This document shows, in pieces, positions 4,630 through 51,472 of a stretch of 64,000 bases of DNA. Within the stretch, counting starts at the first letter, position 1. Every line of letters starts with the position of its first letter. The stretch spans positions 17,508 to 81,507 of the forward strand of contig WJMT01000124.1 in the NCBI GenBank assembly GCA_014727835.1. Reading direction: 5' to 3'. A program made the position numbers and the translations under genes. Source of the stretch: Candidatus Aminicenantes bacterium (GTDB taxonomy: Bacteria > Acidobacteriota > Aminicenantia > Aminicenantales > Aminicenantaceae). A model generated the notes under the pieces. That model was given only the letters and a program-made list of their open reading frames with translations, did no database searches and was not told the origin of the DNA.

Positions 4630-4645
4630 TGGCATATAATTTGCT
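4630..4645 (+). promoter_or_regulatory. sigma-54-type promoter candidate (-24/-12)
   Basis: TGGCAT-ATAAT-TTGCT has the correct GG-N10-GC spacing against the consensus TGGCAC-N5-TTGCW. It lies 36 nt upstream of the GTG at 4681. The spacer also reads TATAAT, so a sigma-70 -10 element is an alternative. Confidence 0.45.
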
Positions 4646-4680: not shown

Positions 4681-6633
4681 GTGAAAAACAAAAAAAATAC
4701 ATATAGGAACACGGGTTTCATTGTTTTATCCGCTGTTTTATTTTTGTTCCTTTCATTTCCGGCTTTTTCCAGTTCTCATTACAAATATGCCATCAAGCAG
4801 GGAATGGATGTCTATTTCGGGCACATCAGTTACATCCAAAACCTGGAATCCCAGCCGATCGTGTATAAAGAAGATCAGCTGGGTCCTGAGTATGCGGTTT
4901 TAAATTTTCCTATTGCGCCTGGAAACACCGTTCGCACCCAAGGCAAGGGACGATGCGAGGTTCAGTTTGATACAGGAACACTTCTCAGATTGGAAGAAAA
5001 TACGGAGATCACAATAGAGACCGTATTGGCTCAAAGTCTGAGTTCCCGAAAAAAGATGACCAATCTGGTTTTAAAAAAAGGGACCGTCTATGTGATGTAC
5101 AAAAGCTATATGACCCTTGAGTTATTCCAGATCATGACTCCCAATGCCGCTGTGAAGATGAATCCCTTTTCTGTCACTCTGGTGAGCGCGCACCCTGACG
5201 GTTCGACCGATGTTAAAGTCATGCAGGGTAAAGCTTTTGTGATGTATGGGCCCGATGAAAACAATCTGCGTGAGGAGAAAATCAAACAGGGTCAGTCAGC
5301 ACGAGTGGAGAAGGATCACGGATTTGAATATCTGGAAAATATATCCAGTCCGGATTTTGAGTCCTGGAACAAAAAGATCAATCAAAATTTCCAAAAACTC
5401 CACGAAGGCAAAACCCCCCTTCCCAAACCTGTCTATAGATATCCGGATGCTGTGATCTATTTTGCGGAAAAATATTCCACCACCTATGGAGAATGGCTGT
5501 GGGATGAATATTACGGATATGTGTGGAGACCGTTTCACTACCGCTATTATCCCAGCGGGTGGCAGCCTTACTCTTTCGGACAGTGGACCGCGGTGAACGG
5601 TCAGATGTTCTGGGTCCCCCAGGAACCCTGGGGCTGGGCTCCTTATCATCTCGGAGTTTGGGTCTGGAACAAGAAAAAGGGATGGCTCTGGATTCCGGGA
5701 TCTGTGTTTTCTCCGGCCTGGGTGTGCTGGAACTATGTGATCAGGCCCGGGATTGGGACCGGCTATTTTATTTGGAGACCCTGGACCGTTCTGGACTGGG
5801 TGGATTGGTCTTTTATTGATTTTTCATGGATGCATGATGATGCGGATGTGGGAATTGATAATCCCTGGCTGTATGATGAGCAGGACATCGGGGAACACAT
5901 TCCTGATGCCAATCTCCAGAGTTTAGCTAAGAAAAATGATCCTTGCTATGTGTTAACTGGACGGCTGAAAAAAGTCTTTAAGAATGTGAAAAAAGCGGTT
6001 CAGAATGGGGAAAAAGAATTGATTTCCACATACTCCTATATAAGGGGAAATCCATATCTAGTTAAACATGAATCCCTCATTTCTCCTGATATTCAGAAGA
6101 AAATCATGGACCTGGATCAGCTTGGGGAAAATTGGGATCAAGCCCTTACTCGACTTTCTCAAGGCGAACTCCAAGAGAAAATTGTGGGAGCGTATCGCAC
6201 TCTTAGGAATCCCGATATAAAGAGGCCCTCTGTTCAAAAAAGCACCAAATTCAGTGATAAAGCTTCCGGAAAACACATCTCTTCAATGCCTGTAAAAACA
6301 GCGGCAGCGACACATGAAAAAAGAGAGACTATAATGCGTTTTAGAGATTGGAATCCTGATATCGAAGTGGCTCGGGACATGGGAGTGTCTATTATCTATT
6401 CCGGGGTCCGGAATGAGATCCAGTGTCCTGAACTCCGTCTTTCTTCTGGAAAAGTACGGATAACTCCTTTCAGTAAGATCAGTTCAGGAAGCGCTTTTTA
6501 TTCGCAAAAAGGTGGAGGCCGGGGGTTCGGAGCAGGCAGTAGTTCAGGAAAAGGATCCTCAACTGCAACCAAACTGACATCCAAAACCTCTTCCTCTTCA
6601 AGCAGTAGCCGGAGCTCAAAAACAAAAAAATAG
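4681..6633 (+). CDS. FecR-domain / DUF6600-like Trp-rich secreted protein with Ser-rich tail
   Basis: GTG start with RBS GGAGGG and a signal or anchor helix. The N-terminal half resembles a FecR beta-sandwich. The central repeats YGYVWRP..GWQPYSFGQW..PWGWAPYHLGVWVW..GWLWIPG..PAWVCW are DUF6600-like. The C-terminus is a low-complexity S/K tail. Confidence 0.55.
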   Translation: MKNKKNTYRNTGFIVLSAVLFLFLSFPAFSSSHYKYAIKQGMDVYFGHISYIQNLESQPIVYKEDQLGPEYAVLNFPIAPGNTVRTQGKGRCEVQFDTGTLLRLEENTEITIETVLAQSLSSRKKMTNLVLKKGTVYVMYKSYMTLELFQIMTPNAAVKMNPFSVTLVSAHPDGSTDVKVMQGKAFVMYGPDENNLREEKIKQGQSARVEKDHGFEYLENISSPDFESWNKKINQNFQKLHEGKTPLPKPVYRYPDAVIYFAEKYSTTYGEWLWDEYYGYVWRPFHYRYYPSGWQPYSFGQWTAVNGQMFWVPQEPWGWAPYHLGVWVWNKKKGWLWIPGSVFSPAWVCWNYVIRPGIGTGYFIWRPWTVLDWVDWSFIDFSWMHDDADVGIDNPWLYDEQDIGEHIPDANLQSLAKKNDPCYVLTGRLKKVFKNVKKAVQNGEKELISTYSYIRGNPYLVKHESLISPDIQKKIMDLDQLGENWDQALTRLSQGELQEKIVGAYRTLRNPDIKRPSVQKSTKFSDKASGKHISSMPVKTAAATHEKRETIMRFRDWNPDIEVARDMGVSIIYSGVRNEIQCPELRLSSGKVRITPFSKISSGSAFYSQKGGGRGFGAGSSSGKGSSTATKLTSKTSSSSSSSRSSKTKK

Positions 6634-7710: not shown

Positions 7711-9039
7711 TCAAAAAATGAGAGTGATGGAGGTTTCTGAATAAGGTTGGGAATGCACTCCAATAGACCCTTTGTGAAGTCTCATGATCTGTCTGGATAG
7801 ACTCAGTCCGATTCCAGAACCCCCTTCTTTGGTGGAGAAAAAGGGGATGAATATTTTTTCCATGTTTTCATTTGGAATGCCCGGGCCATTATCTGTCACT
7901 TCTAAAATGATCTTTCCTCTTTTATCCAGCCGGGCTTCCAGGTTGACTTCAGCGTTTTCACATCCCTCTACTGCCTGTTGAGCATTGAGCAAAAGATTGA
8001 TCAGCACCTGTTCAATGAGTTCTGTATCAGCAGTGAGTTCTAGAGTCTGCGGCTGGACTTTGACTAAAAACTGGATTCCTTTATCTTTGAAGTCTTTCTG
8101 CATCAGTTTTTCCACACGCAAGAAGAGTTCTTTGATTTGAAATATTTGAAAATTTGGTTTTTTGATCAAGGTCAGATTCCGGTAGGCATCCACAAAATGC
8201 ATCAAACCCTGACTTCTTTTCTTGATGGTTTGGGCTGCGTCTTTGATATCTGTCAGAGCTTCTGAAACCATATTTTTATGGACCAGGCCGTTTATGGTGG
8301 ATGCCAGAGAGGATATGGGGGTCACGGAATTCATGATTTCGTGAGTGAGAACTCGGATCAATTTTTGCCAGGCTTCAATTTCAGTCTCCTCCAGTTCGCT
8401 GTGGATGTTTTGTAAAGAGACCAGAAAATATTTGTTCCCTCCCAGTTTGAACTCTGTTCCATAGACAGACAGGTGCAGAGTCTCATTGTTAATGTCAATC
8501 TTCACCGTGTTTTTTTCCCTTGGCTTGAGTTTGAGAAGGGTATTGACCAGCTTGGGACTGAGAGATTGGAGAGATTTTATGTTTTTGAGCTGATTAATCC
8601 CAAGAAGCTGTTTGGCTGCTTTATTTATGAGTTCCACTTCTCCATCAGGCTGGAATACGATCAATCCCACTCCGATGTGTCTCACCACTGTCTGCAGGTA
8701 ACGCGCTTGTTGCTCTTTCTCGGTCCGGGTTTTGCGAAAAGCATTCATGACTTCAGTGAATGAATTTTTCAGAGAGTCAAAAGTTTGGCCTCTCCCCTCA
8801 TACTTAAAAGACTGAGAAAAATCGCTGTATCTGATAGAGTCAAAAAAATGAGTCAAGTCTCGGTTTGTTTTTTCTACATAGTGAATCAGTGCATAGGTTT
8901 GGTAGATGATCAAGAAACCGAGTATGATCAAAGCGCTGTATAAAGTGGTCTGAGTCAGGATCAGGAAAAAACTCAAAAGGGTCAATCCTAGAATGCAAAT
9001 GCGCAGGATGCAGTTGATTCTAAAATTTTTATAGACCAT
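7711..9039 (-). CDS. sensor histidine kinase (two closely spaced TM helices, PAS, HisKA, HATPase)
   Basis: H-box [17 protein letters not shown]-box [12 protein letters not shown]-boxes DNGPGI and GGSGIGLSL. The TM helices (residues ~8-28 and ~33-53) are joined only by TQTT, so there is no periplasmic domain. The ATG overlaps the upstream regulator gene by 11 nt. Confidence 0.85.
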
Positions 9040-10411
9040 ATTTTTCCATTCTCCGGTACAGTGAAGCTCTGGAAATCCCTAGTTCATCTGAGGTTTTGGA
9101 AACATTTCCGTTGTGTTTATCTAAGGCCTTATGAATGGCTATTTTTTCAAGTTCTGCCAGATTAAGGTCTTCGTATTCCAGAGAATCTCCTTTGGATTCT
9201 GGAGAAGAAAAGAAAAAATCTGAAGGCTGAAGAGTGAGAGATTCGCTCATGATCACCGCCCGTTCTATGGCATGTTGGAGCTCCCTCACATTTCCGGGCC
9301 ATGAATACTTTTCCAGTCTCTTCAAGGTGGCGTGGCTGATCTTATCTATGGATTTGTTGTATTTTTTGGAATAGATATTCAGAAAATGTTCAGCTAAAAG
9401 TGGAATGTCTTGGACTCTTTCTCTAAGAGGCGGGATCCTGATCTCAACAGTATTGATTCGATAGAGAAGGTCCTGCCGGAATTGGTCATGGGTGACCATC
9501 TTATGGATATTCATGTTTGTGGCGCAGATAAGACGGACATCGATTTCTATGGTCTTGTTTGAGCCGAGACGAGTCACTTTTCTGTTTTCAATGACAGTGA
9601 GCAGCTTGGCCTGGAGTGTTAATGGGAGATTCCCGATTTCGTCCAGAAACAGAGTCCCTCCTGATGCAATTTCGAATCGGCCGGCCCGGTCTTCTTTGGC
9701 ATCTGTAAAAGCTCCCTTGACGTGGCCGAAGAGCTCACTCTCAAAAAGAGTTTCGCTTAGGGCGCCCATATCCACGCTGATAAAGATCTCTCCGGCTCTG
9801 GGAGACTGTCTGTGAAGTTCTCTGGCCACCAGTTCTTTGCCGGTTCCATTTTCGCCGAGGATCAACACATTGGCGTCTGTTTGGGCGACTTTTTGAATAT
9901 CAGAAAAGACTTGTTGTATGGCCGGGCTTTTTCCTATGAATTCATGGAAGGGCTGGTCCAAATCCTGACTGAGCTGCTTTTGCTTTGAACGCAGATTTTT
10001 GGCTTCTGTACGGCTTTGTCTTAAATTGAGTGCTGCAGAAAGAGTGGCGATCAGTCTTTCATTTTGCCAGGGTTTGAGAATAAAATCCGTAGCCCCTTCC
10101 TTGATCGCTTTCACGGCCATTTCCACATCTCCATAGGCTGTGATCAAAACGACCACAGCACTGGGATCCAGTTCTACGATCTGATCCAGCCAATGGAATC
10201 CTTCAGCGCCGCTGGTCGCTCCTTTGGCAAAATTCATATCAAGAAAAATGACATCATAATTGTCATTCTTTAAAAGCGAGGGAATCGAGTCAGGGTTCTT
10301 TTCCGTGTGAACCTGCCCCACATGTCTTTTGAGAAGCAGCCGGGCAGCTTGAAGAATGTCTTCATCATCATCAATGACCAAAATTTTTCCATACTTTTTT
10401 TTCATGTTCAC
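9029..10411 (-). CDS. sigma-54-dependent response regulator (NtrC family enhancer-binding protein)
   Basis: Receiver domain ([17 protein letters not shown]). AAA+ domain with Walker A GENGTGKE, a GAFTGA-loop variant GAFTDA, and [11 protein letters not shown]-terminal Fis-type [33 protein letters not shown]. Confidence 0.9.
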
Positions 10412-29584: not shown

Positions 29585-29621
29585 TGTCCGATAGCGGACA
29601 ACAATTGGTCTAAAATGGACA
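29585..29621. promoter_or_regulatory. tandem palindromic upstream activator sites (second copy of the 10535-10571 module)
   Basis: TGTCCG-ATAG-CGGACA is a perfect 16-bp palindrome (29585-29600). TGGTCT-AAAA-TGGACA follows at 29606-29621. Their centres are 21 bp apart, 83 and 62 bp from the GG of the downstream sigma-54 promoter. Confidence 0.5.
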
Positions 29622-29673
29622 CTTTGCTGTTGTTCTATTGATCTTAATGGGGGCTTTCCCTGTTTCAATAACT

Positions 29674-29689
29674 TGGCATGAAAATTGCT
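29674..29689 (+). promoter_or_regulatory. sigma-54 promoter candidate of the orphan permease
   Basis: TGGCAT-GAAAA-TTGCT has correct -24/-12 spacing. It lies 50 nt upstream of the ATG at 29739. Confidence 0.7.
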
Positions 29690-29738
29690 TAAGATAAAGA
29701 GAAACCTCTGTCAAAAATGAGACAAGGAGCTTGAATCT

Positions 29739-32105
29739 ATGATTAAAAATTATCTGCTGATGGCATTTCGTAACTTGAAAAAATATAAAGTCTATTCTTT
29801 TATCAACATCCTGGGCCTTGCTGTGGGTTTGAGTGCTTTTATCCTGATTCTTCTTTATCTGCAGTTTGAACTCAGCTACGACAAATTTCATCAAGATGCG
29901 GACCAGATATACCGGGTGGGAATAAAATCCTATCAGGAGGGCAAATACAGCAACGAATCTTATGTGTTCACTCCACCCATCGGGGAAGAAATGAAAAAGG
30001 AATTTCCCGAAGTGGAAGAATTCGTGAGGATGTCTACATTGAGGCCCGCTTACTTGAACATCAACAATGAAGCTCATAAAGAAACCAGTATGCGGTACGC
30101 ATCGGACAAAATATTTGAGATGTTTTCCTTTGACCTGATCCAGGGAGATGAGGCCACCGCACTCACAGATCCTTTTTCCATTGTGCTTTCACGGAAAACA
30201 GCGGAACGGCTTTTTGGTTCAAAAGATCCCATGGGAAAGACGGTTCAGATCGGTCCCGAACATTTGTATCAAATCACAGGTGTGGTTGAAAATCCCCCAG
30301 AAAATTCCAGTATTCAATTTACAGCTTTGATATCCTTTTCCACTCTTTATACGTTACCCAACCTTTATTTGGGCTGGAACGGAGGAAATCAGTACATAAC
30401 CTATGTCAAACTCAATGAGGGCACATCTCCCGGAGAGTTGGAAAAGAAACTGCCGGATTTCATGTGGCGTCATATCAATGAGCGGATTGCTTCATACGGA
30501 TGGAAAAACGAAGCTTATTTTCAGCCCTTAAAGAAGCTACATTTCCATTATGATCCCGGCTCCCGAATGGCCTTGACCAATTTCTACACCTTTACTGTGG
30601 TGGCTGTGTTTATTCTTTTGATTGCGGGAATCAATTTTGTCAACCTCACCACTGCCCGGGCAGCCCGGAGAGCGCGGGAAGTGGGCTTGAGAAAAGTGGT
30701 GGGAGCCAACAGGGGAAATCTGATCAGACAATTTCTAGGAGAGTCCGTGTTTTTGACCTTCCTGGCGTTTCTTCTCGGAGCCTCACTGGTCTCTCTTTTC
30801 ACTCCTTTGTACAGTCGGCTTTTAAACAAAGACCTGAATGTCTTAGCCATGATCAATCCTCTGAGTGTTTTGGCATTGATCGGATTGATTTTAGTGGTTG
30901 GTATTGCTGCAGGGATCTACCCCGCTTTTTACCTTTCAGCGTTTCAACCGGTCAAGACGGTCAGAGGGGAGGCGGAAACAGGGAGAGGACGGAAAAAATT
31001 CCGGGACTTTCTGGTTGTGTTTCAATTCGCCATATCAGTGACATTGATCATATGCACTGTTCTCGTCCAGAATCAAATCAGATTTATAAAAAAAGCAGAG
31101 CTGGGTTATGAAAAGGAAAATATGCTGGTGATCAATCTTCCCGGTCAGGAACTGGGAACCAAAACAGAAGAAATGAGAGAAAAGCTGTTATCTATTCCAG
31201 GAATAACTCATGTCAGTGCTTCCTCGCAAGTGCCTTACCGGGGGTTCACTAGAAACGGCTATGTTCCTGAAGGATATGCATCTTCACTTATGTTTCACGC
31301 TTTGGATATTGATGAGCACTTTTTTGACGCTTATGGGATTGAGGTCATAAAAGGAAGAAATTTCAACAAAGAATTTTCCACGGATAAAGAGGCCTATCTG
31401 ATCAATGAGACTCTGGCCAAGCAGTTGGGATGGGAGAATCCTGTTGGAAAGACCATCAGCCGGAACGGGGAATGGAAAGTGATCGGGGTGGTCAAGGATT
31501 TCCAGTTCTCCACTCTTCACCATGATGTAGGGTCTCTGATCATCACCCGCAATCCCTGGGAGAACCGCTTTGACTATCTCTCAGTCAAGCTCAACACCAA
31601 TGATCTTCCCAGGACGGTCCAAGAGATAAAAAAGGTGTATAAAGAATTCTCTCCCCTCCTTCCTTTTGAATACTTTTTCCTGGACCAAGCTTTTGACAGA
31701 GTTTATAAGTCAGAGGAAAGGTTTCAGAAAATCTTTCTCTATTTCTCTATCCTGGCCATTTGTATTGCTTTGCTTGGTTTGTTTAGTCTGACGGCTTTCA
31801 CAGCACAGCAGAAGGCCAAGGAAATCGGGATCCGCAAAGTCCTGGGAGCCACTGTTCCCAGCATTTTGTCCATGTTTGTCAAAGACATGATGCTTCTCAT
31901 CGGGCTGGCCAATCTCATTGCTTGGCCAGCAGCTTACTATGTCATTCAAAAATTTCTCCAAAACTATGCTTACCGGGAGGATGTGAGTTTATGGGCGTTT
32001 GTGCTGGCTCTTTTTGGAAGCGCGGTGGCTGCTCTGGCTACCATCAGTTATCAGAGTTTTAGGGCTGCGTTCAAGAATCCTGCTGATGTGCTGCGGACGG
32101 AATAA
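29739..32105 (+). CDS. duplicated FtsX/MacB-type ABC permease (ADOP-like, orphan: no adjacent ATPase)
   Basis: N-terminus MIKNYLLMAFRNLKKYKVYSFINILGLAVGLS. Two FtsX modules (INFVNLTTARAARRAREVGLRKVVGA.. and QQKAKEIGIRKVLGAT..). Ends with LRTE. RBS AGGAG. Confidence 0.9.
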   Translation: MIKNYLLMAFRNLKKYKVYSFINILGLAVGLSAFILILLYLQFELSYDKFHQDADQIYRVGIKSYQEGKYSNESYVFTPPIGEEMKKEFPEVEEFVRMSTLRPAYLNINNEAHKETSMRYASDKIFEMFSFDLIQGDEATALTDPFSIVLSRKTAERLFGSKDPMGKTVQIGPEHLYQITGVVENPPENSSIQFTALISFSTLYTLPNLYLGWNGGNQYITYVKLNEGTSPGELEKKLPDFMWRHINERIASYGWKNEAYFQPLKKLHFHYDPGSRMALTNFYTFTVVAVFILLIAGINFVNLTTARAARRAREVGLRKVVGANRGNLIRQFLGESVFLTFLAFLLGASLVSLFTPLYSRLLNKDLNVLAMINPLSVLALIGLILVVGIAAGIYPAFYLSAFQPVKTVRGEAETGRGRKKFRDFLVVFQFAISVTLIICTVLVQNQIRFIKKAELGYEKENMLVINLPGQELGTKTEEMREKLLSIPGITHVSASSQVPYRGFTRNGYVPEGYASSLMFHALDIDEHFFDAYGIEVIKGRNFNKEFSTDKEAYLINETLAKQLGWENPVGKTISRNGEWKVIGVVKDFQFSTLHHDVGSLIITRNPWENRFDYLSVKLNTNDLPRTVQEIKKVYKEFSPLLPFEYFFLDQAFDRVYKSEERFQKIFLYFSILAICIALLGLFSLTAFTAQQKAKEIGIRKVLGATVPSILSMFVKDMMLLIGLANLIAWPAAYYVIQKFLQNYAYREDVSLWAFVLALFGSAVAALATISYQSFRAAFKNPADVLRTE

Positions 32106-36371: not shown

Positions 36372-38941
36372 AGCAAAATAAATTCAAACTTCCGCGATGG
36401 TTTTTTTCCATCCTGCGAAGGTTTGCTGATGAAGAGATCTTGGCTTCCATTGAGGAAGATCTGGAGGTCCGCTGCATCAGAGCCAAAGAGAAACACAGCC
36501 CCGCTTTTGCCTGGTTTTTATGTCAGCTTCAGGGACTCTCACTCCTTTTCTCTTTTTCACTTGAATCATTCTTATGGGGGATAACAATGTTTCGAAATTA
36601 TATGAAAGTCGCATTCCGGTATATCAAACGAAAAAAAGTCTATTCTTTCATCAATATTTTAGGGCTTACTATCGGGATGGCCTGTTTCTTGTTGATCGGC
36701 TTATGGGTGAAAGATGAATTGAGTTTTGACCGTTTTCATCAGAAAAAAGATCGGATTTACCGTGTGCTTAACAAAATGCCTGATGACAGTACTGATTTCA
36801 ATATCACATATGCCATAGGACCTGCATTGAAAGCGGAATACCCGGAGGTGGAAGAAGCCTGCCGTGTTTGCACCTGGTACGGATCTCATGTGAGATACCA
36901 AGACAATGTGTATGTAGAACGCAATATTTATCTTTCGGATCCTCGTTTTTTTCAAATATTTTCTTTCCCGTTCATCTCAGGAAATCCTGAGACAGCGCTT
37001 TCCGATCAGTATTCACTTGTCATCACTGAACAGACTGCACAAAAGTATTTTGGGGAAGAAGATCCTCTGGGAAAGGTTCTCAACTTGTCTCAATGGGATA
37101 ATGATTTTACCGTCACTGGGGTTATTGAAGACATCCCCACCAATTCCCATCTGCGTTTTGACATGATGGGACGGATTGAATTTCTAGGGAAAGAACGGCT
37201 GGCTCGCTGGGAGGAATGGTCAGGCCCGAATTATGTTCTTCTTAAGCCGGGAGTCTCTCCTGATGATTTTGAGAAAAAAATCGCAGGGATATACAAAAAA
37301 AATGTTGGTCCGGAAACGACTTATGTTCCGGAACTTCAGCCGCTCACTCAGGTCCATTTGTATGATCCGGGGCGTCCGGGACGAGTGAGGAAAGTCACCA
37401 TGTTTTCAGTGATTGCATTATTTATTCTTGTTATGGCTTGTATTAATTTCATGAACCTGGCTACAGCCCAGTCCTCCAGGCGTGCCTTGGAAGTGGGAAT
37501 GCGAAAGGTGATCGGAGCACAGCGGCGTCAAATCATACGACAGTTTTTAGGAGAAGCGGTGCTCATTGCCTTTTGTGCGCTTATCCTGGCACTGATCGCT
37601 GTGGAAGGGACACTTCCCTATTTCAATCAATTCACAGCAAAATCTTTAGCTCTGTTATCAAAAGCTAACATTCCCATGGTGTTGACTCTTTTGCTTGTCA
37701 CGCTGGGGACCGGAATTCTGGCTGGAATGTATCCGTCTTTGTTTCTTTCTTCCTTCCAGCCGGCTCAAACCCTAAGAAGCCAAAATTCTTTCAAAAACAA
37801 AGGGGGAGGCATTCGAAGAATTTTGATTGTGGTCCAATTCTCCATCTCCGTGGGACTGATTGTTTCAACCCTTTTGGTCTCTCAACAGCTCCGTTATATT
37901 CAAAAGAAAGATATCGGACTGGAAAGGGAACAGATCATTGGTCTGTATGTTTACCCGAGCTTTATACCCAGATTTGAGACCTTTAAAAACTCCCTGCTGA
38001 ATCAACCGGAAATAAAAGATGTCACATCTGCGGCTCAACCTCCTTTTCGTGTGGGGGAGAATATCCAGATCAACTGGGAGGGGAATCAAACGGATCAGAT
38101 GATTTCAGCGGATTACACCTGTGTGGACTATGATTTTTTTCAAACATTCAATATGCCTATTGTTCAGGGGCGTGCGTTTTCTAAAGAATACCCCACTGAT
38201 GTGAGGACCGCATGTGTTATCAATGAGACAGCAGCCCGGCGTATGGGAATCACTGATCCCATTGACACCAATATCTATATGAATCACCCTGCGTGGCCAG
38301 AATCGTTCCGGACCGTACAGGTCATTGGAGTGGTCAAAGATTTCCATTCCCGTTCTTTGCACACAGCTATAAGACCGTTTGTCTTCAGGATGTACAGACC
38401 CTGGCATCAGTATGCTTTCATAAAAATGGATGGGTCCCAAATACAGAAAGCCTTAGCCCAGATCAAAAAGGCTTACAAAGTCTTTTCTCCAGGGATACCG
38501 TTTGATTACATGTTTCTGGATGAAGTGTTCAATCAGCAGTACACATCCGAGCACCAGCTGGGAGAGCTTTTCAATGCGTTCACTTTCCTTTCTATTGCCA
38601 TTGCCTGCCTGGGCCTTTTTGGATTGGCCTCATATACTGTTGAGCAGAAGACTAAGGAAATCGGGATCCGTAAGGTTTTAGGAGCTTCCAGTCCAAGGAT
38701 TGTGGCCATGACAACCTGGGAGTTTCTCAAGTGGATTCTGATAGCCAACGCTGTTGCCTGGCCGGTTGCCTATTTTGTGATGTCCAGGTGGCTTCAGGAT
38801 TTTGCCTATAAAATCAGCATCAGCCCCTTGATTTTTGTGCTTGCTGCCGGCTTGTCCCTTACAGTTGCTGTGATGACCGTCAGTTATCATTCCATCAAGA
38901 TCGCTCTTTCCAATCCGGCTGGTTTGCTGCGGTATGAATGA
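36368..38941 (+). CDS. duplicated FtsX/MacB-type ABC permease with 73-aa N-terminal prefix domain (ADOP-like)
   Basis: The prefix (..EEILASIEEDLEV.. plus the hydrophobic AFAWFLCQLQGLSLLFSF) precedes the canonical MFRNYMKVAFRYIKRKKVYSFINILGLTIGMA. Two FtsX modules. Ends with LRYE. Confidence 0.9.
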   Translation: MKQNKFKLPRWFFSILRRFADEEILASIEEDLEVRCIRAKEKHSPAFAWFLCQLQGLSLLFSFSLESFLWGITMFRNYMKVAFRYIKRKKVYSFINILGLTIGMACFLLIGLWVKDELSFDRFHQKKDRIYRVLNKMPDDSTDFNITYAIGPALKAEYPEVEEACRVCTWYGSHVRYQDNVYVERNIYLSDPRFFQIFSFPFISGNPETALSDQYSLVITEQTAQKYFGEEDPLGKVLNLSQWDNDFTVTGVIEDIPTNSHLRFDMMGRIEFLGKERLARWEEWSGPNYVLLKPGVSPDDFEKKIAGIYKKNVGPETTYVPELQPLTQVHLYDPGRPGRVRKVTMFSVIALFILVMACINFMNLATAQSSRRALEVGMRKVIGAQRRQIIRQFLGEAVLIAFCALILALIAVEGTLPYFNQFTAKSLALLSKANIPMVLTLLLVTLGTGILAGMYPSLFLSSFQPAQTLRSQNSFKNKGGGIRRILIVVQFSISVGLIVSTLLVSQQLRYIQKKDIGLEREQIIGLYVYPSFIPRFETFKNSLLNQPEIKDVTSAAQPPFRVGENIQINWEGNQTDQMISADYTCVDYDFFQTFNMPIVQGRAFSKEYPTDVRTACVINETAARRMGITDPIDTNIYMNHPAWPESFRTVQVIGVVKDFHSRSLHTAIRPFVFRMYRPWHQYAFIKMDGSQIQKALAQIKKAYKVFSPGIPFDYMFLDEVFNQQYTSEHQLGELFNAFTFLSIAIACLGLFGLASYTVEQKTKEIGIRKVLGASSPRIVAMTTWEFLKWILIANAVAWPVAYFVMSRWLQDFAYKISISPLIFVLAAGLSLTVAVMTVSYHSIKIALSNPAGLLRYE

Positions 38942-48862: not shown

Positions 48863-51472
48863 ATGGACAAACCAAAACACAATTTAAAGGTTTTGGAATT
48901 TCTACTGAGAAATCTGGTCTCTGTGGATGACAGGGAAAATCTGGCCGGAGATTTTGAAGAGATGTATGACCGGATCTATCATCAGAAGGGAAAGGCCAGA
49001 GCTGTTTTCTGGTACTTTTTCCAAGTCATCATCCTGTTTCCTGTTTGTATGAAAAATGATTTGTATTGGAGCCTAACCATGATAAAAAACTATCTCAAAA
49101 CCGCTTTTCGGAATATCAAAAAGTTCAAGTCTTATTCCTTTATCAATATTTTTGGAATGGCCATGGGAATGGCCTGCTGCATTCTGATTGTACTCTTTGT
49201 TCAGGATGAATTGAGCTTTGACCGTTATCATGACAAAGCAGACCGGATTGTGCGTTTAGTGGATGGTTTTGATGTCAAAGGAGGCTTGAGCCGTTATTAT
49301 GCCCTCTCATCAGCTCCTTTTGCTCCGAGGCTGAAAAAGGAATTTCCTGAAGTGGAAGAGACGGTAAGGATTTTCCCGGGCCGGGGGAGAATGGTTGAGT
49401 ATGAAGAAAAGAAGTTTTATGAGGACTATCTGTTCTTTGCCGATGCCTCTCTGTTCAAGGTGTTCACCTTTCCCTTAATCAAAGGAGACCCGGAAACCGC
49501 TCTCATCTCTCCCCACACCATCGTGGTTTCGGAGAAAATCGCTCGGAAGTACTTTGGCAGCAAAGATCCTTTGAACAAAATTCTCACTATCAACAACCAG
49601 GATTATCTAGTCACAGGAGTGATGAAGGAGGTCCCGGAAAATTCACATTTTTTTGCCAATCTCTTTGCTTCTCTAAAAACGCTAGAGCAGATTCCATCAA
49701 TAAAAAAACGGTATTTCCAGAGCTGGGCCCGTCATGAATTCTACACCTATCTTCTGCTTCAGGAGAGCACTTCTGTAGAAAAGCTGGAAGCCAAACTGCC
49801 CGGGTTCATTGAAAGACATGCTGCAGCTCAAATCAAATCCATTTTAGGCGGAAAGCTGTATTCGCGGCTGCAGCCTTTGACCAGTATCCATCTTCATTCC
49901 CATCTCCAGGCGGAATTAGAGCCCAACGGGGATATCAAATACGTGACTATTTTCTCTGTCATTGCTTTGTTTGTTTTGCTGATCGCGTGTGTGAATTTCA
50001 TCAATCTGGCTACAGCCCGCTCTTTTAACCGCTCCAAGGAAGTGGGTTTGAGAAAAGTGGTGGGCGCCACCCGTTATCAGATTGTCAAACAGTTTTTGAG
50101 CGAGTCTCTTTTGTTTACAGTGATGGCTTTAGGGCTTTCACTGGTCCTAGTCATAGCTGCGTTTCCTTTTTTCAATTCCTTAACTGGAAAAGAAATTGGG
50201 CTGAATCTCTTCAATCGTTTTTTTCTTATGGGAAGTCTTTTTCTGATATTGGTTTTTGTGGGCGTGTTATCAGCAAGCTATCCAGCGTTTTTCATTTCCC
50301 GGTACCAGCCAGCCCAGGTTTTGAGACAGCACAAAAAAACAGGATCTCAAAGCTCTTTTCTCAGAAAAAGTCTTGTTGTGTTTCAATTCAGCATCTCCAT
50401 TGTGTTGATTATCTCTACAGTAGTGGTTTTGAATCAACTTGATTTTTTAAGAAACCGGAAATTGGGTTTTGACAAGGAGCATGTGGTGGTCATTCCCATC
50501 AGGTCTCATAATATCAGGTCAAACGCAGAGGCCATCAAATCAGAGCTGATGCAGAACCCCAATGTGCTGTCTTCTACGGTAACTATTGGAGTTCCGGGAG
50601 GAGTCGTGGCCGGGGATGCCATTCAGCTGGTTACAGAAGATGGAAAAAAGACCTTATCCTTGGATATGATTTACACAGACCATGACTATATAAAGACCAT
50701 GGGAATGGAAATCATCGAGGGAAGGGATTTTTCAAAACAAATGTCCACAGATGCCACACAGGCATTCATCATCAATGAGGCTGCAGTCCGGAAATTGGAG
50801 CTGGAAGAGCCGCTGGAAACCCGGTTTGAATGGGGTGATAAACGGGGGAAAGTGATTGGTGTGGTCAAAGACTTCCAGTTTCAATCCCTTAGAAATGAAA
50901 TCAATCCTTTGGTTATCCATGTCTGGCTCCAGAACACCTTTGTCTTTGCTGTAAGGGTTCGGCCGGATAATATACCCCAGACTTTGGAATTCCTCAAAAC
51001 CAAATGGAAAGAATTGGATCCCGCACATCCTTTTGATTATTCTTTTATGGATGAGACATTTGATCAGATCTATAAAGGGGAAGAAAAGCTTGGTCAAGTA
51101 TTCAGCTCATTTTCCTTCTTGGCCATCTTCATCGCCTGTCTGGGTCTGTTCGGTCTGAGTATTTTCATGGTTGAGACACGGACCAAAGAAATCGGTATTC
51201 GCAAGATTCTGGGGGCTTCAGCAGGAAATATCATGCTGCTTTTATCCAAAAAATTCACCCTTCTAGTCCTGACTGCTAATCTCATTGCCTGGCCCGCTGC
51301 ATATGTTGTGATGCGAAAATGGCTTCAGAGCTTTGCCTACCGGATCCCTATGGAGCCCTGGATCTTTGTTTTATCTGGGTTCATTGCATTGATTGTGGCG
51401 CTTTGGACTATCAGTTTTCAGGCAGTAAAAGCGGCATTCACAGATCCGGTCAAGACATTGAGATATGAATGA
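48863..51472 (+). CDS. duplicated FtsX/MacB-type ABC permease with 72-aa N-terminal prefix domain (ADOP-like)
   Basis: The prefix (..NLAGDFEEMYDRI.. plus the hydrophobic AVFWYFFQVIILFPVCM) precedes MIKNYLKTAFRNIKKFKSYSFINIFGMAMGMA. Two FtsX modules. Ends with LRYE. Confidence 0.9.
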   Translation: MDKPKHNLKVLEFLLRNLVSVDDRENLAGDFEEMYDRIYHQKGKARAVFWYFFQVIILFPVCMKNDLYWSLTMIKNYLKTAFRNIKKFKSYSFINIFGMAMGMACCILIVLFVQDELSFDRYHDKADRIVRLVDGFDVKGGLSRYYALSSAPFAPRLKKEFPEVEETVRIFPGRGRMVEYEEKKFYEDYLFFADASLFKVFTFPLIKGDPETALISPHTIVVSEKIARKYFGSKDPLNKILTINNQDYLVTGVMKEVPENSHFFANLFASLKTLEQIPSIKKRYFQSWARHEFYTYLLLQESTSVEKLEAKLPGFIERHAAAQIKSILGGKLYSRLQPLTSIHLHSHLQAELEPNGDIKYVTIFSVIALFVLLIACVNFINLATARSFNRSKEVGLRKVVGATRYQIVKQFLSESLLFTVMALGLSLVLVIAAFPFFNSLTGKEIGLNLFNRFFLMGSLFLILVFVGVLSASYPAFFISRYQPAQVLRQHKKTGSQSSFLRKSLVVFQFSISIVLIISTVVVLNQLDFLRNRKLGFDKEHVVVIPIRSHNIRSNAEAIKSELMQNPNVLSSTVTIGVPGGVVAGDAIQLVTEDGKKTLSLDMIYTDHDYIKTMGMEIIEGRDFSKQMSTDATQAFIINEAAVRKLELEEPLETRFEWGDKRGKVIGVVKDFQFQSLRNEINPLVIHVWLQNTFVFAVRVRPDNIPQTLEFLKTKWKELDPAHPFDYSFMDETFDQIYKGEEKLGQVFSSFSFLAIFIACLGLFGLSIFMVETRTKEIGIRKILGASAGNIMLLLSKKFTLLVLTANLIAWPAAYVVMRKWLQSFAYRIPMEPWIFVLSGFIALIVALWTISFQAVKAAFTDPVKTLRYE

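What the first reader, a model, noticed from the sequence alone, without database searches (positions are those of the whole stretch)
29585..29689. The same cis-regulatory module 19 kb away in front of an orphan ADOP-type permease, implying a regulon
A perfect palindrome TGTCCG-ATAG-CGGACA and a second site TGGTCT-AAAA-TGGACA lie 21 bp apart. They are followed by TGGCAT-GAAAA-TTGCT. The distance from the first TGTCCG to the TGGCA element is 89 bp here and 90 bp at the exporter operon. The site centres are 83/62 bp from the -24 GG here and 84/63 bp there. The first 9 nt of the site (TGTCCGATA) are identical in both loci. Such conserved geometry is unlikely by chance. It suggests the regulator at 9029-10411 also drives this permease, which has no ATPase of its own and could borrow one of the two ATPases in the exporter operon.
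Basis: seen in the sequence. Interest (0 to 1): 0.65.

Follow-up and report, generated by a model that had tools for sequence, protein, structure and literature searches.

The report
Sigma-54 enhancer module before orphan permease
Two activator-binding palindromes and a sigma-54 promoter sit in front of a lone pump-permease gene, copying the layout at a complete efflux-pump operon 19 kb away; the module marks a small conserved regulon in this uncultured Aminicenantes bacterium, run by a textbook mechanism on a little-studied pump family.

Summary
TGTCCGATAGCGGACA (29585-29600) and TGGTCTAAAATGGACA (29606-29621) lie 89 and 68 bp upstream of a perfect sigma-54 promoter (29674-29689). That promoter sits 49 nt before a 788-aa duplicated FtsX/MacB-type permease gene.

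It is not chance. In the 3.1-Mb genome, tandem TGT-N10-ACA dyads 21 bp apart occur at only four loci, and each is followed by a sigma-54 promoter. The four loci are the exporter operon and its divergent regulator operon, this permease, and two more lone permeases on other contigs.

In 31 relatives a strict pattern finds 58 modules and none in the reversed control. Spacing is phase-locked: 76-82 or 88-93 bp, never 83-87. About 60% precede permease paralogues and 10 precede the core exporter.

Modules track the NtrC-type regulator gene (9029-10411). One relative lacks the regulator and exporter cassette, has no intact duplicated permease, and keeps two module-bearing permease pseudogenes.

The regulon reading is therefore well supported, and the regulon is larger than proposed. 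Binding by this regulator and ATPase sharing remain inferences. The mechanism is classical. A sigma-54/FtsX link was predicted computationally in 2025.

The parts
29585..29600 (.). Upstream activator site 1: perfect 16-bp palindrome TGTCCGATAGCGGACA, starting 89 bp upstream of the -24 TGG.
   Evidence: It is conserved in the orthologous promoters of 5 relatives.
29606..29621 (.). Upstream activator site 2: imperfect dyad TGGTCTAAAATGGACA, 21 bp (two helical turns) after site 1.
   Evidence: Conserved as TGGTCTAAAAYGRACA / TGCTCTATTACGGACA in orthologues.
29655..29662 (+). Pyrimidine-rich TTTCCCTG box ending 11 nt before the -24 element. Its role is unknown. It is conserved among orthologous promoters and recurs at many sigma-54 promoters of this lineage.
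29674..29689 (+). Sigma-54 (-24/-12) promoter TGGCATGAAAATTGCT. The GG is at 29675-29676 and the GC at 29687-29688. Predicted transcription start is near 29700.
   Evidence: rpoN is present in the genome. The start site is inferred from the standard sigma-54 geometry, not mapped.
29724..29729 (+). Ribosome-binding site AAGGAG, 9 nt before the ATG.
   Evidence: GGAG is conserved.
29739..32105 (+). 788-aa duplicated permease (2 x MacB_PCD + FtsX), monocistronic, with no MacB-type ATPase gene beside it.
10535..10571 (.). The same pair of dyads (TGTCCGATATTGAACA and TGTTCCCAAGTGAACA, 21 bp apart), shared by two divergent promoters.
10625..10640 (+). Sigma-54 promoter of the exporter operon, TGGCACATTTATTGCA.
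10458..10473 (-). Near-consensus sigma-54 promoter AGGCACGTATCTTGCA facing the regulator-kinase operon (probable autoregulation). It is conserved as AGGCACATATCTTGCA in relatives.
9029..10411 (-). NtrC-type response regulator (receiver + sigma-54 AAA+ + Fis-type HTH; L1 loop reads GAFTDA). It is the proposed binder of the dyads.
7711..9039 (-). Histidine kinase co-transcribed with the regulator.
10741..17990 (+). Core exporter operon: adaptor (10741-11997), ATPase 1 (12068-12757), small ORF, duplicated permease (13055-15379), small ORF, ATPase 2 (15736-16404) and a TolC-like channel (16431-17990).

Best explanation
The stretch 29585-29689 is a working enhancer-plus-promoter unit of the sigma-54 class.

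Proposed mechanism:
1. Two dimers of the NtrC-type response regulator encoded at 9029-10411 bind the two dyads. The dyads lie two helical turns apart, so both dimers sit on one face of the DNA. The regulator would first be phosphorylated by the kinase at 7711-9039.
2. The bound dimers assemble into the active AAA+ ring.
3. The ring loops onto RNA polymerase-sigma-54 held in closed complex at TGGCAT-N5-TTGCT.
4. ATP hydrolysis opens the promoter.
5. A monocistronic mRNA starts near 29700 and encodes the lone duplicated FtsX/MacB-type permease.

The same regulator, through identical modules, also drives its own operon, the divergent adaptor/2 x ATPase/permease/TolC exporter operon, and two further lone permease genes on other contigs. 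One signal therefore switches on a core pump together with several extra permeases.

What is shown: the sequence elements, their genome-wide exclusivity, their helical phasing, their conservation, and their co-occurrence with the regulator/exporter cassette.

What is inferred: which protein binds, that transcription is sigma-54 dependent, and that the lone permeases use the core operon's ATPases, adaptor and channel.
For: (1) Both loci have exact elements and matching geometry.

(2) In the whole 3.1-Mb assembly, tandem dyads occur only at four loci. Each has a sigma-54 promoter 81-98 bp downstream. Simulated genomes gave none. rpoN is present.

(3) A strict pattern gave 58 hits in 14 of 31 related genomes and 0 in the reversed control.

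(4) The distance from site 1 to the -24 element is bimodal: 76-82 bp (19 promoters) and 88-93 bp (38 promoters). None falls at 83-87 bp although 71-101 was allowed. The two classes differ by one helical turn.

(5) Downstream genes of the 57 promoters:
- 10 are core exporter operons.
- About 25 are duplicated permeases directly downstream.
- Several more are PadR-, small-ORF- or subtilase-led operons that contain a permease.

(6) In every genome with a regulator orthologue, one module lies in the divergent regulator/exporter gap, with a second promoter facing the regulator.

(7) Orthologues 63-69% identical in other phyla often carry similar tandem dyads just upstream.

(8) Phyletic pattern: of 13 genomes with the regulator (whole or partial), 12 have modules.

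(9) G002 lacks the regulator, the adaptor and every intact duplicated permease. Its two module-bearing permease genes are pseudogenes, while its neighbouring genes are intact.

(10) In the alignment of orthologous promoters (74% mean column identity), the invariant columns cluster in the dyads, a CCCTG box, the -24/-12 elements and the RBS, while the spacers between them vary more.

(11) The sigma-54-linked permeases are not one clade, so the modules were not simply copied along with the gene.
Against: - There is no experimental or expression evidence. The organism is an uncultured MAG and no RNA run holds the locus.
- The binder is assigned by position and co-occurrence only. The genome holds about 8 other sigma-54 activators, and one (contig C129) uses a similar half-site, TGTTCA-N5-TGAACA.
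- Modules persist in G002, which has no regulator, although they sit on pseudogenes there.
- G029 has one module but no close regulator orthologue. That assembly is 83% complete.
- G012 has the exporter with a sigma-54 promoter, but only one dyad and no regulator orthologue.
- The regulator's sigma-54 contact loop reads GAFTDA, not the canonical GAFTGA.
- The exact module pattern was not found in six more distant genomes that carry regulator orthologues.
Confidence: 0.8

Rival explanations
1. The modules are real sigma-54 enhancers, but a different activator paralogue binds them. Candidates are the second GAFTDA-type activator on contig C76 and the C129 activator, whose own sites share the TGTTCA half-site. 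On this view, the position next to the 9029-10411 regulator is coincidental or reflects cross-regulation.
For: - The genome holds about 8 other sigma-54 activators.
- The C129 sites TGTTCAATTGTTGAACA and TGTTCAACTTCTGAACA resemble the half-site.
- Second sites at two loci are 17-mers, like the C129 type.
- Modules persist in G002 without the regulator.
Against: - The module lies in the regulator's own divergent promoter region in all genomes that have it.
- Distant orthologues carry similar dyads at the same place.
- Modules are absent from relatives that lack this regulator but hold the other activators.
- The recognition helices of the paralogues differ.
- The G002 copies sit on decaying genes.
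Confidence: 0.1
2. The resemblance is inherited. The promoter region was copied together with a permease gene during paralogue expansion, so the shared layout says nothing about present co-regulation.
For: - The family is highly expanded, with about 22 paralogues here and at least 33 in some relatives.
- All non-core targets in this genome are permeases.
Against: - The four sigma-54-linked permeases are only 35-42% identical and do not form a clade. Well-supported branches force at least 3 gains or losses.
- At the exporter the module precedes an adaptor gene, not a permease.
- Only the dyads, the box and the promoter are alike. The spacers are unrelated.
- Elements are conserved at the orthologous promoters of five relatives while the spacers between them vary more.
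- In relatives the module also precedes unrelated genes.
Confidence: 0.04
3. It is a chance co-occurrence of short palindromes with a GG-N10-GC match, or the 29585-29600 palindrome is a terminator hairpin of the upstream peptidase gene.
For: - TGT-N10-ACA alone is common: 728 in the genome.
- The consensus scan lists the palindrome as a weak terminator-like hairpin on the minus strand.
Against: - The tandem arrangement is unique to sigma-54 promoters in this genome and absent from simulations.
- There were 58 hits against 0 in the reversed control.
- Phasing is strict.
- On the + strand the hairpin has a 6-bp stem and no T-run, and no gene ends there on the minus strand.
Confidence: 0.01

Closest known systems
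NtrB-NtrC acting on glnAp2, and relatives ZraSR, AtoSC and GlrKR of Enterobacteria (my own knowledge of the textbook systems)
   Same: - A two-component, NtrC-family activator.
- Tandem dyad-symmetric upstream sites on one face of the helix.
- A -24/-12 promoter.
- Activation by looping and ATP hydrolysis.
- A divergent, probably autoregulated arrangement, as in zraP-zraSR.
   Different: - The sites lie closer to the promoter (centres about -62 and -83 relative to GG) and are exactly 21 bp apart.
- The dyad is TGTYCG-N4-CGRACA.
- The activator loop reads GAFTDA.
- The targets are export-pump genes scattered over at least three contigs of the draft assembly.
- Nothing has been tested at the bench.
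Computational link between sigma-54 promoters and FtsX-like permease / COG1136 ATPase genes (PLoS One 2025, PMC12316311)
   Same: Sigma-54 promoters are predicted upstream of FtsX-family ABC components in several phyla. The authors call it the first evidence of that regulatory axis.
   Different: In the passages I read, that study gives promoter-matrix enrichment by COG and class. Those passages name no activator, enhancer motif, helical phasing or regulon of lone permeases, and my text search found no mention of Acidobacteria.
BceRS-BceAB of Bacillus subtilis and VfmIH-VfmFG of Dickeya (as discussed in PMC9306890)
   Same: A two-component system is genetically coupled to an FtsX-type ABC transporter. 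In those systems the permease is shown or proposed to act as co-sensor for a kinase that lacks a sensor domain.
   Different: - Bce uses an OmpR-type regulator and sigma-70 promoters, with one transporter operon per system.
- Here the regulator is sigma-54 dependent and drives several lone permease genes as well as the core pump.
- Homology of this regulator to VfmH was not tested here.
MacAB-TolC tripartite efflux pump and the ADOP (acidobacterial duplicated orphan permease) family TIGR03434
   Same: - Adaptor, MacB-type ATPase, FtsX permease with a periplasmic MacB domain, and a TolC-like channel.
- Permeases that are internally duplicated, encoded without an ATPase, and greatly expanded in number.
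- The function of the ADOP family is still unknown (PMC3914696).
   Different: - MacB is a fused ATPase-permease homodimer.
- Here the permease is a two-module single chain without an ATPase.
- It scores below the ADOP model's curated cut-off (313 against 622 bits).

Membership tests
Sigma-54 (-24/-12) promoter | GG and GC dinucleotides 10 bp apart within TGGCAC-N5-TTGCW, correctly oriented a short distance upstream of a gene | tested here: met
   TGGCATGAAAATTGCT at 29674-29689, 49 nt before the ATG. It is one of only 24 perfect matches in 3.1 Mb.
Sigma-54 (-24/-12) promoter | The organism encodes sigma-54 (rpoN) | tested here: met
   TIGR02395 match of 438 bits (cut-off 277) at G000:C113:10080-11465.
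Sigma-54 (-24/-12) promoter | Transcript 5' end about 12 nt downstream of the -12 GC, and dependence on rpoN | not testable with these tools
   No RNA run holds the locus. Only one sediment DNA run has 8% of the sampled words.
NtrC-type enhancer (upstream activator sites of a bacterial enhancer-binding protein) | Dyad-symmetric sites, usually in tandem, about 70-150 bp upstream of the promoter | tested here: met
   Two 16-bp dyads 21 bp apart, starting 89 and 68 bp upstream of TGG. The same layout is found at 57 promoters.
NtrC-type enhancer (upstream activator sites of a bacterial enhancer-binding protein) | Face-of-helix constraint between the sites and the promoter | tested here: met
   Distances fall at 76-82 or 88-93 bp and never at 83-87 bp.
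NtrC-type enhancer (upstream activator sites of a bacterial enhancer-binding protein) | Specific binding by the cognate activator | not testable with these tools
   The only support is indirect: the site position in the regulator's own divergent promoter, and co-occurrence across genomes.
NtrC-family sigma-54-dependent response regulator (the proposed binder, 9029-10411) | Receiver + sigma-54 interaction AAA+ + Fis-type HTH domains | tested here: met
   PF00072, PF00158 (231 bits), PF25601 and PF02954.
NtrC-family sigma-54-dependent response regulator (the proposed binder, 9029-10411) | GAFTGA sigma-54 contact loop | tested here: inconclusive
   The loop reads GAFTDA. The same variant is present in 75 of 80 orthologues across phyla, and one paralogue has it too. 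It is conserved, so probably functional, but it is not the canonical motif.
ADOP family duplicated permease (TIGR03434) | Score at or above the curated cut-off of the family model | tested here: not met
   313.1 bits against a cut-off of 622.3. The gene is therefore ADOP-like, not a certified member.
ADOP family duplicated permease (TIGR03434) | Internally duplicated MacB_PCD + FtsX architecture, about 800 aa | tested here: met
   Two stretches each of PF12704 and PF02687 in 788 aa.
ADOP family duplicated permease (TIGR03434) | Orphan: no cognate ATPase gene in the same operon | tested here: met
   The neighbours are an M1 peptidase upstream and a small gene downstream. The nearest ABC ATPase is 27% identical to the exporter operon's first ATPase gene (12068-12757) and lies on the opposite strand in a separate operon.
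Bce/Vfm-type transporter-coupled signalling | The permease acts as co-sensor for a kinase that lacks an extracytoplasmic sensor domain | not tested
Kinase topology and the permease-kinase contact were not examined here.

The most novel reading that the evidence does not exclude
The lone permeases are interchangeable heads of one combinatorial pump. A single sigma-54 two-component switch induces a shared chassis of adaptor, two ATPases and a TolC-like channel, together with several substrate-specific duplicated permeases that have no ATPase of their own. Those permeases may also feed back as co-sensors of the kinase, in the manner of Bce or Vfm. Loss of the chassis would then doom the whole permease family, as seen in relative G002.
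Probability: 0.3. Interest if true: 0.7.

Novelty: new member of a known kind. Interest (0 to 1): 0.42.

Why it matters
- ADOP-like duplicated permeases are among the most expanded and least understood transporter families in Acidobacteriota and Bacteroidota. Here there are about 22 copies in a 3-Mb genome, and more than 33 in relatives.
- Some of them share one enhancer/promoter design with a complete MacAB-TolC-like pump. That gives a concrete, testable handle on when they are made and which partners they may use.
- The motif TGTYCG-N4-CGRACA x 2, placed 76-82 or 88-93 bp from TGGCAY-N5-TTGCW, can be used to annotate this regulon in Aminicenantes MAGs.
- The mechanism itself is classical. 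The general sigma-54/FtsX link has already been predicted, so the gain is in detail rather than in concept.

Tried and rejected
- Chance: rejected by genome-wide counts, simulations and the reversed-pattern control.
- Terminator reading of the 29585-29600 palindrome: rejected. There is no T-run on the + strand, no gene ends there on the minus strand, and the site is one of a conserved dyad pair.
- Promoter copied along with the gene: rejected by the paralogue tree and by the unrelated spacers.
- Known RNA element in the leader: none. There is only a sub-threshold VrrA hit at 23.9 bits against a gathering score of 50.
- Expression evidence: no RNA run was found.
- Extension to culturable relatives: a generic tandem-dyad plus promoter pattern found nothing in Labilibaculum (2 genomes), Ancylomarina, Marinifilum, a distant Aminicenantes MAG and a Bacteroidales MAG, although all hold 65-68% identical regulators. 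Site geometry or promoter wording must differ there, so I could not name a cultured model carrying the same module.
- Apparent absence of the regulator in G003 is an assembly gap, because a contig starts inside the TolC gene of the cassette. Only G002 is a credible true loss.
- Two literature searches returned mostly unrelated papers, apart from one note on the ADOP family, and one returned nothing.

Full report
**Observation.** The sequence is exactly as described.
- At the permease, TGTCCGATAGCGGACA (29585-29600) and TGGTCTAAAATGGACA (29606-29621) are followed by TGGCATGAAAATTGCT (29674-29689). An AAGGAG ribosome-binding site and the ATG at 29739 come next.
- At the exporter, TGTCCGATATTGAACA (10535-10550) and TGTTCCCAAGTGAACA (10556-10571) are followed by TGGCACATTTATTGCA (10625-10640).
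- Site starts lie 89/68 bp before the TGG at the permease and 90/69 bp at the exporter.

**Genes.**
- ORF 9029-10411 (minus strand) is a receiver + sigma-54 AAA+ + Fis-HTH response regulator.
- ORF 7711-9039 is its histidine kinase.
- 10741-17990 encodes an adaptor, two MacB-type ATPases, a duplicated MacB_PCD/FtsX permease and a TolC-like channel.
- 29739-32105 is a second duplicated permease of 788 aa. It scores 313 bits on the ADOP model TIGR03434, below the 622-bit cut-off.
- Its neighbours are an M1 peptidase and a small gene. The nearest ABC ATPase is only 27% identical to the exporter operon's first ATPase gene (12068-12757) and belongs to a convergent operon.
- Record titles of regulator orthologues 85-89% identical place the genome in Candidatus Aminicenantes, Acidobacteriota. 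rpoN is present.

**More than chance.**
- The 3.1-Mb assembly has 24 perfect TGGCAY-N5-TTGCW sites and 24 strict TGTYCN-N4-NGRACA sites.
- A generic tandem pattern, TGT-N10-ACA-N5-YGK-N10/11-ACA, occurs at only four loci. Each has a sigma-54-type promoter 81-98 bp downstream.
- Five first-order Markov genomes gave 0-4 tandems and none with a promoter.
- The four loci are the exporter/regulator gap (read in both directions), this permease, and two further lone permeases at G000 C37:27661 and C4:11485.
- The genome has about 22 paralogues of the permease. About half of those examined follow a small upstream ORF, the others sit in varied contexts, and none of them has a sigma-54 promoter.

**Relatives.**
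- The strict pattern TGTYC-N7-VACA-N55-85-TGGCAY-N5-TTGCW hit 58 times in 14 of 31 related genomes and 0 times when read backwards.
- After duplicates were removed, 57 promoters remain.
- In nearly all, a second dyad follows 21 bp after the first.
- The distance from site 1 to TGG is 76-82 bp (19 promoters) or 88-93 bp (38 promoters). It is never 83-87 bp, although 71-101 bp was allowed. That is one helical turn of difference, the signature of an activator that must face the polymerase.
- Ten promoters head the core exporter operon. About 25 head a duplicated permease directly.
- Others head PadR-plus-permease, small-ORF-plus-permease or subtilase-plus-permease operons.
- A few head a 61-aa membrane peptide, a BlaI-type repressor, a DUF5916/CBM9 protein, a transglutaminase-like protein or an NTN-hydrolase-like protein.
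- The orthologous promoter of this very permease is present in five relatives. In that alignment (74% mean column identity) the invariant columns cluster in the dyads, a CCCTG box, the -24/-12 elements and the RBS, while the spacers between them vary more.

**Which protein binds.** This is inference, but several lines converge.
1. In every genome with a regulator orthologue, one module lies in the gap between the regulator and the exporter. A second, near-consensus promoter (AGGCAC-N5-TTGCA) faces the regulator there, which is the usual place for a cognate, autoregulated site.
2. Orthologues 63-69% identical in Ignavibacteriota, Calditrichota, Bacteroidota and other phyla often have tandem TGTNCG-N4-CGNACA dyads at the same place: 27 of 73 loci examined.
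3. Of 13 relatives with the regulator, whole or partial, 12 have modules. G015 was missed by the strict pattern only because its site ends in TACA.
4. Three genomes have modules without a detected regulator.
   - In G003, contig C269 begins inside the cassette's TolC gene, so the locus is simply unassembled.
   - G029 is an 83%-complete assembly of another family.
   - G002 is 95% complete and lacks the regulator, the adaptor and every intact duplicated permease.
5. G002's two module-bearing permease genes are wrecks. One has at least three frameshifts and an 80-aa deletion, and the other survives only as fragments. Six neighbouring genes are intact. This looks like a natural knock-out in which the targets decayed after the cassette was lost.

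**Not a by-product of gene duplication.** The four sigma-54-linked permeases of this genome are 35-42% identical. They are scattered over the paralogue tree, and well-supported branches force at least three gains or losses. Their spacers are unrelated.

**ATPase sharing.**
- The genome has about 7 MacB-type ATPase genes for about 22 duplicated permeases.
- Across 31 genomes, duplicated permeases are found in all 15 genomes with evidence of the cassette, but in only 2 of the 16 without it.
- The core operon carries two ATPase genes for one permease.
- All this fits shared use of the core ATPases, adaptor and channel, but nothing here shows a physical partnership. The phyletic correlation is also not corrected for shared ancestry.

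**Comparison with what is known.**
- Mechanistically this is a classical NtrC-type enhancer and sigma-54 promoter.
- A 2025 study predicted sigma-54 promoters before FtsX-like permease and COG1136 ATPase genes in several phyla and called it a new regulatory axis (PMC12316311).
- ADOP function is still described as unknown (PMC3914696).
- Transporter-coupled two-component systems such as BceRS-BceAB and VfmIH-VfmFG offer an analogy for permeases acting as co-sensors (PMC9306890).
- Earlier notes of this scan report the same wiring in other phyla. I treat them as leads only.
- What is specific here: the motif, the strict phasing, the family-wide regulon made mostly of lone permeases, and the G002 case.
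- I rate it a new member of a known kind, of moderate interest.

**Caveats.**
- No expression or binding data exist.
- The regulator's L1 loop is GAFTDA rather than GAFTGA, though this is conserved in 75 of 80 orthologues.
- Another activator with a similar half-site exists, on contig C129.
- The exact pattern is not found in six more distant genomes that hold regulator orthologues.

Noticed in passing
window 29655-29662 and 10605-10613; also many promoters: A pyrimidine-rich box (TTTCCCTG / TTTCCCCTG) ends 11 nt before the -24 TGG at both window promoters and at most 'long-spacing' modules in relatives. Similar CCCTG or CCTC strings also precede sigma-54 promoters of this genome that are outside the regulon (for example C60, and C66 at two sites). 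It may be a lineage-wide promoter-proximal element or a bending-protein site.
   Followed up: partly
window 9029-10411 (residues KGAFTDAKE); G000 C76:17660-18970: The regulator's sigma-54 contact loop reads GAFTDA instead of GAFTGA. 75 of 80 orthologues from many phyla share this, 4 have GSFTDA, and one paralogue in this genome has it too. The other five activators of the genome found by this motif scan keep G(A/S)FTGA.
   Followed up: partly
G002:C6:67695-69781 (L147) and G002:C3 about 2000-2430 (L148): A same-genus relative without the regulator/exporter cassette has no intact duplicated permease. It keeps two permease pseudogenes that still carry intact dyads and an intact sigma-54 promoter.
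   Followed up: yes
window 4630-4645: Another perfect sigma-54 promoter, TGGCATATAATTTGCT, lies 35 nt before ORF 4681-6633. Its upstream sites are different (TGTGTCATATAGAAAGGACA ... CAGAACA), so it probably belongs to another activator's regulon.
   Followed up: no
window 36587-38938 and 49079-51469: Two more duplicated-permease paralogues lie in the window. They have no sigma-54 module. Each follows directly on a small ORF ending in a '...YW...' motif, which is the arrangement before about half of the paralogues examined in this genome.
   Followed up: partly
G000 C129:28811-29000: A different activator gene (C129:27453-28754) is followed by two 17-bp palindromes (TGTTCAATTGTTGAACA, TGTTCAACTTCTGAACA) 80 bp apart, and then by a perfect sigma-54 promoter. 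The half-site is the same as in the regulon studied here, but the spacing is different.
   Followed up: no
G012:C75:42150-42373 (L150): In one relative the exporter operon keeps a perfect sigma-54 promoter and the promoter-proximal dyad. It has lost the distal dyad, has no regulator orthologue beside it, and none is found in the assembly.
   Followed up: partly
L023, L037, L132 (G005, G004, G006): A conserved 61-aa hydrophobic peptide gene (MKIRTKVAIFLLACF...) with no Pfam match lies about 140 nt behind one of the best modules (TGTCCGATATCGGACA). It could be a small membrane or secreted peptide of the regulon.
   Followed up: no
promoter wording: Short-spacing modules (76-82 bp) mostly read TGGCATnTTTnTTGCT. 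Long-spacing modules (88-93 bp) mostly read TGGCACAnnTATTGCA. The two geometry classes may therefore be two promoter sub-lineages.
   Followed up: no
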